In this document: positions 47,140 to 47,296 of the stretch, one piece after another
Numbering within the stretch: position 1 is the first letter of the stretch
How the letters are laid out: each line of letters starts with the position of its first letter
Assembly: GCF_003334315.1 (NCBI RefSeq)
Contig: NZ_QOWR01000025.1
Reading direction: 5' to 3' (one strand)
Origin: Escherichia coli
Lineage (GTDB): Bacteria; Pseudomonadota; Gammaproteobacteria; Enterobacterales; Enterobacteriaceae
Length of the DNA stretch: 64,000 bases
Notes under the pieces: generated by a model
What the model was told of the DNA's origin: nothing
Databases searched by the model: none
Seen by the model: the letters and a program-made list of their open reading frames with translations, nothing else
Made by a program: the position numbers and the translations under genes

Positions 47140-47159
47140 TCCAGCATGGTTTGTCGGAT

Positions 47160-47285
47160 GCGGCGTGAACGCCTTATCCGACCTACGATTCGGGGCCGTT
47201 TGTAGGCCCGATAAGACGCGCCAGCGTCGCATCGGGCATCCGTTGTCGCGTAAACGCTTTATCCGTCCAGGCGTACAGGGCCGTT
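47160..47285. repeat. REP/BIME cluster (two to three REP units in alternating orientation)
   Basis: tgtcggatgcggcgtgaacgccttatccgacctac and inverted tgtaggcccgataagacgcgccagcgtcgcatcgggc between convergent hemL and fhuB. Confidence 0.85.
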
Positions 47286-47296
47286 ATATGGAAAAA

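What the first reader, a model, noticed from the sequence alone, without database searches (positions are those of the whole stretch)
47140..47296. BIME between convergent hemL and fhuB
Two to three REP units in alternating orientation fill the 157-bp spacer and likely serve as the shared 3' stabiliser/terminator for hemL and the fhu operon. The spurious ORFs 47027..47353 and 47044..47232 overlap it.
Basis: seen in the sequence. Interest (0 to 1): 0.15.

Follow-up and report, generated by a model that had tools for sequence, protein, structure and literature searches.

The report
Known REP repeat cluster after hemL
The 157-bp gap between the convergent genes hemL and fhuB holds an ordinary E. 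coli K-12 REP/BIME-2 repeat cluster (two intact hairpin units and one decayed one); it is not a classical terminator, and about two thirds of E. coli strains carry a short simple hairpin there instead.

Summary
The spacer 47140-47296 is exactly the 157 bp between hemL (+) and fhuB (-). It contains a Y-type REP (47152-47186, 1 mismatch to the published consensus) and an inverted Z2-type REP (47202-47238, 0 mismatches); none are expected by chance. A third unit (47244-47271) is a decayed Y copy that has lost 7 nt of one arm and its GTAG box. Linkers and Y sequence match other BIME-2 modules, and there is no IHF site, so this is a BIME-2-type cluster.

The "terminator" reading is only partly supported. 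No U-tract follows any hairpin. Published bicyclomycin data place Rho-dependent termination regions on both strands here. A curated Term-seq list shows no dominant 3' end in or next to the spacer.

The most likely role is a pair of strong hairpins (-19 and -23 kcal/mol on either strand) that block 3' exonucleases and may assist Rho termination. A neutral selfish repeat is a serious rival.

New detail: only 31% of 5,426 complete E. coli genomes carry this BIME. The rest have a 34-bp hairpin spacer, terminator-like in O157. Both alleles predate the species.

This is a known kind of element and of low interest.

The parts
45859..47139 (+). hemL CDS (glutamate-1-semialdehyde 2,1-aminomutase). Its TGA stop ends at 47139, 13 nt before the first paired base of the Y hairpin.
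   Evidence: ORF list; RefSeq annotation of identical DNA; distance computed.
47140..47151 (.). 12-nt left flank of the BIME (TCCAGCATGGTT). It is conserved with the E. albertii and cryptic-clade Escherichia BIME alleles and absent from the short allele.
   Evidence: Alignments.
47152..47186 (-). Intact Y-type REP (palindromic unit), 35 nt. GTAG form on the - strand: GTAGGTCGGATAAGGCGTTCACGCCGCATCCGACA.
   Evidence: Consensus scan: 1 mismatch, 0 expected by chance. Hairpin -19.2 (+) and -18.8 (-) kcal/mol, z = -4.8 and -4.6. 35/35 identical to the Y units of the cpsB-cpsG and cvpA-dedD BIME-2 copies.
47187..47201 (.). 15-nt linker between the GTAG ends of Y and Z2 (GATTCGGGGCCGTTT). It is homologous to the linker of other BIME-2 modules (GGTTCGG..GTTT).
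   Evidence: It evolves at the neutral rate (4/15 versus 24-27% at 4-fold degenerate sites).
47202..47238 (+). Intact Z2-type REP, 37 nt: GTAGGCCCGATAAGACGCGCCAGCGTCGCATCGGGCA.
   Evidence: Consensus scan: 0 mismatches, 0 expected by chance. Hairpin -23.4 (+) and -22.9 (-) kcal/mol.
47239..47243 (.). 5-nt linker (TCCGT) between the non-GTAG ends of Z2 and the third unit. The 5-nt length matches ACGGC and CTGTT in paralogous BIME-2 copies and TTGGT in the cryptic-clade Escherichia orthologue.
47244..47271 (-). Decayed second Y unit. It has a 7-nt deletion in the 5' arm, its CTAC has become CAGG, and it no longer forms the REP hairpin.
   Evidence: 70% identity to Y plus linker (D1). Alignment to the intact second Y of L006. 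Fold z = -1.1 on + and -2.5 on -. A sub-threshold Rfam naRNA4 hit spans Z2 plus this unit (47205-47268, 46.6 bits versus gathering score 59.5).
47272..47296 (.). Remnant of a second linker (CGTACAGGGCCGTT), then the right flank ATATGGAAAAA abutting the fhuB stop codon.
   Evidence: (D1). The A5 run is listed.
47297..49279 (-). fhuB CDS (ferric hydroxamate ABC transporter permease), last gene of the fhu operon. Its stop codon is 58 nt from the nearest intact hairpin (Z2).
47300..47725 (+). Untranslated, C>G-skewed stretch antisense to fhuB, on the hemL sense strand. It leads up to a published Rho-termination region (MG1655 173016, - strand, which is window ~47725).
   Evidence: GC skew -0.09 to -0.29. 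Adams 2021, PMC7815308, supp. file 2: Rho score 8.65, p = 1.7e-22. Resolution is low because scores use 800-nt windows.

Best explanation
This is a BIME-2-type cluster of E. coli REP elements with the layout Y - linker - inverted Z2 - linker - decayed Y. It belongs to the high-copy repeat family associated with the domesticated transposase TnpA_REP (RAYT). It lies in the shared 3' zone of the convergent hemL gene and fhu operon.

It is not an intrinsic terminator. RNA polymerase coming from either side transcribes into or through it, and Rho ends transcription nearby or downstream, in untranslated C-rich RNA antisense to the opposite gene. This step is shown by published bicyclomycin data.

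The two intact units fold into strong hairpins on either strand. They most likely act as barriers to 3'->5' exonucleases and possibly as pause sites that help Rho. In that role they would do the job of the simple GC-rich hairpin that occupies this spacer in most other E. coli strains. This step is inferred from the REP family and is not shown for this copy.

The third unit is a dead relic.

My confidence in the identity is about 0.97. My confidence in the RNA-level function is about 0.5.
For: Identity:
- Consensus matches with none expected by chance.
- The Y unit is identical to, and the linkers are homologous with, the paralogous BIME-2 modules at cpsB-cpsG and cvpA-dedD.
- About 9 megablast places per genome.
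- No IHF motif.
- Sub-threshold hits to the REP325-derived Rfam family naRNA4.

Not an intrinsic terminator:
- No terminator-like site and no T-run after any hairpin.
- The alternative allele in O157 does score as a terminator.

Rho involvement:
- Rho-termination regions on both strands, at MG1655 173016(-) and 173376(+) (PMC7815308 supp. 2).
- C>G skew downstream on each sense strand.

Hairpins:
- -19 to -23 kcal/mol, z about -4 to -5, on both strands.
- All 24 stem pairs are kept in 4 distinct orthologues, with 1 compensatory change.

Constraint on the intact units:
- K-12 versus cryptic-clade Escherichia: REP units differ at 1/72 sites, 4-fold degenerate sites at 85/314 (Fisher p = 6.6e-8).
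- K-12 versus E. albertii: 5/72 versus 75/314 (p = 0.0011).
- The linker drifts at the neutral rate.

Family-level support:
- REP325 acts as both a partly Rho-dependent terminator and a stabiliser, and REP-containing convergent gene pairs are more highly expressed (bioRxiv 10.64898/2026.03.23.713779).
- Rho-terminated transcripts are trimmed back to stable stem-loops (PMC6061677).
Against: - No dominant Term-seq 3' end is listed in the spacer, or for hemL or fhuB, in three growth conditions (PMC7815308 supp. 1). A stable REP-protected end is therefore not demonstrated.
- 68% of E. coli strains lack the element, so it is dispensable.
- The slow evolution of the REP units could reflect concerted evolution with paralogues rather than selection at this locus.
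- The Rho scores use 800-nt windows and do not place termination relative to the hairpins.
Confidence: 0.6

Rival explanations
1. Neutral or selfish repeat. The BIME is a relic of REP/RAYT-mediated spread that sits in a permissive convergent spacer and has no host function of its own. Its apparent conservation comes from homogenisation with the many paralogous copies.
For: - It is absent from about 68% of E. coli genomes.
- The third unit has decayed.
- The GTAG boxes are mutated in E. albertii and in the cryptic-clade strain.
- The same spacer holds genus-specific palindromic repeats across Enterobacteriaceae, as expected of a safe landing site.
- There is no Term-seq peak.
- The Y unit is 35/35 identical to paralogues.
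Against: - The orthologous element has persisted since before the E. coli / E. albertii split with all stem pairs intact, while the adjoining linker drifted at the neutral rate.
- Nearly every species has some strong hairpin in this spacer, whether a repeat or not, which suggests a hairpin is wanted here.
Confidence: 0.3
2. Shared bidirectional intrinsic (Rho-independent) terminator for hemL and the fhu operon, the strong form of the first reader's reading.
For: Two very stable hairpins on both strands. Some REPs coincide with intrinsic terminators (Introduction of 10.64898/2026.03.23.713779).
Against: No U-tract follows any hairpin on either strand, and the scan finds 0 terminator-like sites. 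Significant bicyclomycin-dependent read-through occurs on both strands.
Confidence: 0.04
3. DNA-level role. As a BIME-2 (Y/Z2) it is a preferred DNA gyrase binding and cleavage site that relieves positive supercoils building up between the convergent hemL and fhu transcription units. This does not exclude an RNA role.
For: The Y+Z2 composition and linkers are those of BIME-2. BIME-2 elements are reported to bind gyrase strongly (stated in PMC2817692). The element lies between convergent genes.
Against: Nothing here tests protein binding. There are only two intact units. Most strains manage without it.
Confidence: 0.12
4. Translation attenuator of hemL. A REP hairpin starting within about 15 nt of a stop codon stalls the terminating ribosome and lowers protein yield through trans-translation (Liang, Rudd and Deutscher 2015, recalled from memory; the paper could not be read here).
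For: The Y stem starts 13 nt after the hemL TGA.
Against: The 15-nt rule could not be verified. In the short allele the hairpin starts even closer, 6-7 nt after the stop, so the BIME would not be a gain of this property. hemL is well expressed (baseMean 5263).
Confidence: 0.08

Closest known systems
BIME-2 clusters of E. coli K-12 (for example REP325 between yjdM and yjdN, and the cpsB-cpsG and cvpA-dedD BIMEs)
   Same: Alternating Y and Z2 palindromic units, the same Y sequence (35/35), homologous linkers, and an extragenic 3' location. REP325 is reported to act as a partly Rho-dependent terminator plus stabiliser.
   Different: It is small, with only two intact units and one relic where REP325 has twelve. 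It lies between convergent genes rather than within an operon. No experiment addresses this copy.
BIME-1 / RIP / RIB elements (Y + Z1 flanking an IHF site)
   Same: Two inverted REP units in an intergenic 3' region.
   Different: No IHF consensus, even with 1 mismatch allowed. The second unit is the 37-nt Z2, not the 29-nt Z1. The inter-unit linker is 15 nt (unit sizes from PMC8266576).
malE-malF REP stabiliser (classical REP 3' exonuclease barrier)
   Same: The same repeat family and the same kind of hairpin. This is the presumed mechanism here.
   Different: That case has direct experimental support. Here no stable REP-ended RNA is listed in a curated Term-seq set.
Intrinsic (Rho-independent) terminator, as in the alternative 34-bp allele of O157:H7
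   Same: A GC-rich hairpin directly after hemL, in the same spacer.
   Different: The O157 hairpin is followed by TTTTATTA and scores as a terminator. The K-12 BIME has no U-tract.
REPINs (REP doublets mobilised by RAYTs, described in Pseudomonas)
   Same: An inverted REP pair with a spacer, repeated as one module across the genome.
   Different: These are E. coli group-2 REPs with the Y/Z2 dimorphism. Mobility of this copy was not tested, and its orthologues in E. albertii and the cryptic-clade strain have mutated GTAG boxes.

Membership tests
E. coli REP / palindromic unit, type Y | Match to the 35-nt Y consensus GTAGGnnnGATAAGnCGnnCACGnCGCATCnGGCA (PMC2817692) | tested here: met
   47152-47186 (-), 1 mismatch, 0 expected by chance. 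The third unit does not match at 3 mismatches or fewer.
E. coli REP / palindromic unit, type Z2 | Match to the 37-nt Z2 consensus GTAGGnnnGATAAGnCGnnnCAnCGnCGCATCnGGCA | tested here: met
   47202-47238 (+), 0 mismatches, 0 expected by chance.
REP (general) | Conserved GTAG tetranucleotide at one end, which TnpA_REP requires (PMC8266576) | tested here: met
   GTAG is intact in Y and Z2. It is lost in the third unit (CAGG on the + strand).
REP (general) | Imperfect palindrome that forms a stable stem-loop with an internal mismatch or bulge | tested here: met
   -18.8 to -23.4 kcal/mol with an internal loop, z = -4.0 to -5.0, on both strands. The third unit fails (z = -1.1 on the + strand).
REP (general) | Extragenic location and high copy number in the genome | tested here: met
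   It lies between the two stop codons. Median 9 megablast places per E. coli genome. There are further copies at window 4604-4686 and about 7075-7109.
BIME | REP units in alternating orientation, separated by conserved linker motifs | tested here: met
   The orientations alternate -, +, - (relic). The 15-nt and 5-nt linkers are homologous to those of the cpsB-cpsG and cvpA-dedD BIMEs.
BIME-2 | Composed of Y and Z2 units, without the IHF-binding L motif | tested here: met
BIME-2 | Strong DNA gyrase binding or cleavage | not testable with these tools
   This needs biochemical or ChIP data.
BIME-1 / RIP | Y + Z1 flanking an IHF site (WATCAANNNNTTR) | tested here: not met
   No IHF match with 1 mismatch or fewer in 47140-47296. 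The second unit is Z2.
Intrinsic terminator | GC-rich hairpin immediately followed by a U-tract | tested here: not met
   0 terminator-like sites on either strand, and no T-run after any hairpin.
Rfam RF02564 naRNA4 (REP325-derived RNA) | Score at or above the gathering threshold of 59.5 bits | tested here: not met
   The best hit is 46.6 bits at 47205-47268 (-). This reflects resemblance through shared REP units only.
REPtron / RAYT-mobilised element | Recognition and cleavage by TnpA_REP, or evidence of recent transposition | not tested
   The rayT (yafM) gene is outside the window. The locus is orthologous across Escherichia species, so this is not a recent insertion.

The most novel reading that the evidence does not exclude
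The hemL-fhuB spacer carries an old two-allele polymorphism that has been maintained rather than merely left over. One allele is the 157-bp BIME-2, shared with E. albertii and a cryptic-clade Escherichia. The other is a 34-bp simple hairpin, collinear with the spacer of two Citrobacter species and terminator-like in O157. The two alleles would switch hemL and fhu 3'-end formation between Rho-dependent/REP-protected and intrinsic modes. That would make this locus a ready-made natural allele swap for testing what REPs actually do.
Probability: 0.2. Interest if true: 0.35.

Novelty: already known. Interest (0 to 1): 0.12.

Why it matters
For the genome scan it matters little. This is one of the several hundred REP/BIME elements of E. 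coli K-12 (355 REP elements are annotated according to 10.64898/2026.03.23.713779). It behaves as that family is expected to.

It explains the two spurious ORFs, and it corrects the idea that the spacer is a conventional terminator.

The one useful by-product is the clean presence/absence dimorphism: 31% of genomes carry the BIME, and 68% carry a 34-bp hairpin that is terminator-like in at least O157. Both alleles are older than the species. That offers a natural pair of alleles for the still-unsettled question of whether REPs stabilise, terminate or do nothing at a given locus.

Tried and rejected
- **Rfam scan of 46000-48500 at E <= 10.** It gave only sub-threshold naRNA4 (REP325) hits and a chance KDPG-aldolase hit, so no curated RNA family applies.
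- **Promoter and terminator scans of the spacer.** Nothing was found.
- **IHF-site search, to test BIME-1/RIP.** Nothing was found.
- **RefSeq records of MG1655 and W3110.** Neither carries a repeat feature here, so I could not confirm the EcoCyc/GenBank REP identifier of this copy.
- **Papers that could not be read.** Bachellier 1997 (PMC1207841) and Liang 2015 were not held. The '15 nt from the stop codon' rule therefore rests on memory.
- **Supplements of other 3'-end papers.** PMC6061677 and PMC9023263 have none held, and PMC12207403 does not mention hemL or fhuB.
- **Harris 2026 supplement.** It lists hemL and fhuB only in differential-expression tables, and the file was cut when stored.
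- **PdhR SELEX peak (PMC7660256).** It lies inside fhuB and is unrelated.
- **Covariation test.** With only 4 distinct orthologues it is uninformative: 1 compensatory pair, and 113 of 500 shuffles do as well.
- **Simple insertion.** I considered that the BIME was inserted into the short allele and rejected it. The two alleles share no spacer sequence beyond the bases next to the stop codons, so the whole spacer differs.
- **Nomenclature.** I first recalled Z1 as the long unit. The papers read here call the 37-nt unit Z2, and I follow them.

Full report
**What is there.** The window is E. coli K-12-like. The stretch is identical to MG1655 173445-173601 in reverse complement. hemL is the + strand ORF 45859-47139 and fhuB is the - strand ORF 47297-49279 (gene names from RefSeq annotation under identical matches).

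**Formal REP test.** I used the E. coli REP consensus published by Nunvar et al. 2010 (PMC2817692, Table 1).
- A Y unit lies at 47152-47186. Its GTAG form reads on the - strand, with 1 mismatch.
- A Z2 unit lies at 47202-47238, GTAG form on the + strand, with 0 mismatches.
- No match occurred in 100 dinucleotide-preserving shuffles for either pattern.

The two units face each other with their GTAG ends across a 15-nt linker. Each folds on either strand into a strong hairpin with the family's internal mismatch: -18.8 to -23.4 kcal/mol, z = -4.0 to -5.0.

On nomenclature, Corneloup et al. 2021 (PMC8266576) give y = 35 nt, z1 = 29 nt and z2 = 37 nt. I follow that usage.

**The third unit.**
- 47239-47285 is a 70% identical copy of Y plus its linker (family D1).
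- It does not pass the consensus scan.
- CTAC has become CAGG.
- It folds no better than shuffled sequence on the + strand.
- A cryptic-clade Escherichia, L006, is labelled E. coli SCPM-O-B-8794 but its hemL flank is only 93.8% identical to K-12. It has an intact second Y at exactly this place (TGTCGGATGCAACGTAAACGCCTTATCCGACCTTG).
- Against that copy, the K-12 unit has lost 7 nt of its 5' arm.

The anatomy is therefore Y - linker(15) - Z2 - linker(5) - dead Y - linker remnant.

**Which kind of BIME.**
- In genomes that lack this element, the best matches to the query are other Y-linker-Z2 modules.
- Two of these, cpsB-cpsG and cvpA-dedD, share an identical Y (35/35), a homologous GGTTCGG..GTTT linker and a 5-nt linker on the other side.
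- No IHF consensus is present, even with one mismatch allowed.
- This is the BIME-2 architecture, not BIME-1/RIP.
- Rfam gives only sub-threshold hits to naRNA4, the REP325-derived family.

**Is it a terminator?** It is not an intrinsic one.
- The scan finds no terminator-like site on either strand.
- The only homopolymer run is A5, next to the fhuB stop.
- Adams et al. 2021 (PMC7815308) measured read-through with and without bicyclomycin in MG1655. Their supplementary file 2 lists a Rho-termination region at 173016 on the - strand, antisense to fhuB. That is the hemL sense strand at window ~47725, about 590 nt past the hemL stop (Rho score 8.65, p = 1.7e-22).
- The same file lists another region at 173376 on the + strand, inside fhuB 68 nt before its stop, window ~47365 (Rho score 3.76, p = 3.5e-5).
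- These scores use 800-nt windows, so they show Rho involvement on both strands but not exact sites.
- On each sense strand, the RNA beyond the spacer is untranslated and C>G skewed, as Rho prefers.
- Their curated Term-seq list has no 3' end at 173300-173699 and no entry naming hemL or fhuB. A stable REP-protected end is therefore not documented for this copy.

**Family-level knowledge.**
- Dar and Sorek 2018 (PMC6061677) support the model that Rho-terminated RNAs are trimmed back to stable stem-loops, some of which are REPs.
- Harris et al. 2026 (bioRxiv 10.64898/2026.03.23.713779) show REP325 acting as a partly Rho-dependent terminator and as a stabiliser.
- They also report that 207 of 704 convergent gene pairs carry a REP and are more highly expressed.
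- They find no general half-life effect.

I therefore commit to 'exonuclease barrier and possible Rho helper, not an intrinsic terminator' as the most likely function, with about even odds. A functionless selfish repeat is the main rival.

**Population and evolution.**
- Only 1,701-1,702 of 5,426 complete E. coli genomes carry the 157-bp allele. About 1,575 of these are K-12-like and about 126 are a 93-94% identical sub-type.
- All other sampled rows show a 34-bp spacer with a perfect 10-bp GC hairpin, TGCCTCGCCC-ACC-GGGCGAGGCA, at -21 kcal/mol.
- This short allele is found in 536, NC101, ST131, O157:H7, O111:H8 and O121:H19, among others.
- In O157:H7 the hairpin is followed by TTTTATTA and scores as a terminator for hemL. 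In STEC307 the tail is TTCAATTA and does not score.
- The two alleles share no spacer sequence, so this is a replacement and not a simple insertion.
- E. albertii has the orthologous Y+Z2 with mutated GTAG boxes and no third unit. The cryptic-clade strain has all three units.
- The short spacer aligns collinearly with that of two Citrobacter species.
- Both alleles are therefore older than E. coli.
- Across Enterobacteriaceae, this spacer almost always holds some palindrome: genus-specific REPs, CCCTCTCCC/GGGAGAGGG-type repeats, or a plain hairpin.

**Constraint.**
- Between K-12 and the cryptic-clade strain, the two intact REP units differ at 1 of 72 sites. 4-fold degenerate sites of hemL and fhuB differ at 85 of 314 (Fisher p = 6.6e-8).
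- Against E. albertii the figures are 5/72 versus 75/314 (p = 0.0011).
- The linker differs at 4/15 sites, which is the neutral rate.
- All 24 stem pairs are kept in the four distinct orthologues, with one compensatory U-A to C-G change. With so few sequences this is not significant as covariation.
- Selection for the hairpins and homogenisation with paralogues both fit these numbers.

**The overlapping ORFs.**
- ORF 47027-47353 acquires in-frame stop codons in another BIME-bearing E. coli and in the cryptic-clade strain.
- ORF 47044-47232 starts at an ATG inside the Z2 repeat and cannot exist in the short allele.
- Neither ORF is annotated.

**Verdict.** The identification as a BIME is correct and can be sharpened to BIME-2 with two live units and one relic. 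'Terminator' should be read as Rho-associated at most. 'Stabiliser' is plausible but undemonstrated for this copy. This is a known kind of element in the best-studied genome, so its interest is low. The allele dimorphism is a modest, usable by-product.

Noticed in passing
window 4563-4761: A second BIME lies between another convergent ORF pair (3684-4562 + and 4762-5472 -). It consists of a truncated Y arm, a 15-nt linker, Z2 (4604-4640), an 11-nt linker and Y (4652-4686). An A/T-rich stretch follows, with a one-mismatch IHF-like motif at 4700 (ATTCAAAATGTTG), which hints at a composite or atypical BIME with an IHF site.
   Followed up: partly
window 7075-7109 (- strand): A solitary REP-like palindrome (GAAAGCCGGATAAGACGCATCAAACGTCGCATCCGGCGAA) lies just downstream of the - strand ORF 7112-8410. 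Its GTAG box is degenerate (GAAA).
   Followed up: no
L002 401-434 and L004 401-434 (E. coli STEC307 and O157:H7), compared with window 47140-47296: About 68% of complete E. coli genomes have a 34-bp hairpin spacer in place of the BIME. It is terminator-like in O157 but not in STEC307, because the tails differ (TTTTATTA versus TTCAATTA). It aligns collinearly with the spacer of Citrobacter sp. FP75 and Cu233 (L008, L010).
   Followed up: yes
L003 401-557 and L088 316-472: A divergent sub-type of the BIME allele occurs in about 126 genomes. It is 93-94% identical over the query, with 14 substitutions in the 157-bp spacer. Three fall in the two intact REP units, all in hairpin loops. The other 11 fall in the linker and the relic unit. 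It sits in a background whose fhuB flank is about 4% diverged from K-12.
   Followed up: partly
L007-L084 (hemL-fhuB spacers of other Enterobacteriaceae): The spacer is a hotspot for genus-specific palindromic repeats. Citrobacter and Salmonella REPs are often followed by a T6 run. Enterobacter, Kluyvera and Pseudocitrobacter carry CCCTCTCCC...GGGAGAGGG repeats. Two species (L033 Enterobacter quasihormaechei, L038 Klebsiella oxytoca) have inserts of about 535 bp of unknown content.
   Followed up: no
window 47276-47286 / 47298-47308: An 11-nt inverted repeat (CAGGGCCGTTA / TAACGGCTCTG, 91% complementary) pairs the relic linker of the BIME with the last codons and stop codon of fhuB. Its significance is unknown and it may be coincidental.
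   Followed up: no
window ~47365 (- strand; MG1655 173376 +): Published bicyclomycin data place a Rho-termination region inside the last 70 nt of the fhuB coding sequence (Rho score 3.76). It may simply reflect the 800-nt scoring window around the true end of the fhu transcript.
   Followed up: partly
H30 / H130: plasmid NZ_CP074792.1 125268-125299: A 32-nt exact match to the Y unit lies on a 155-kb E. coli plasmid. About 20 REP-like places in all were found on plasmids across the collection.
   Followed up: no
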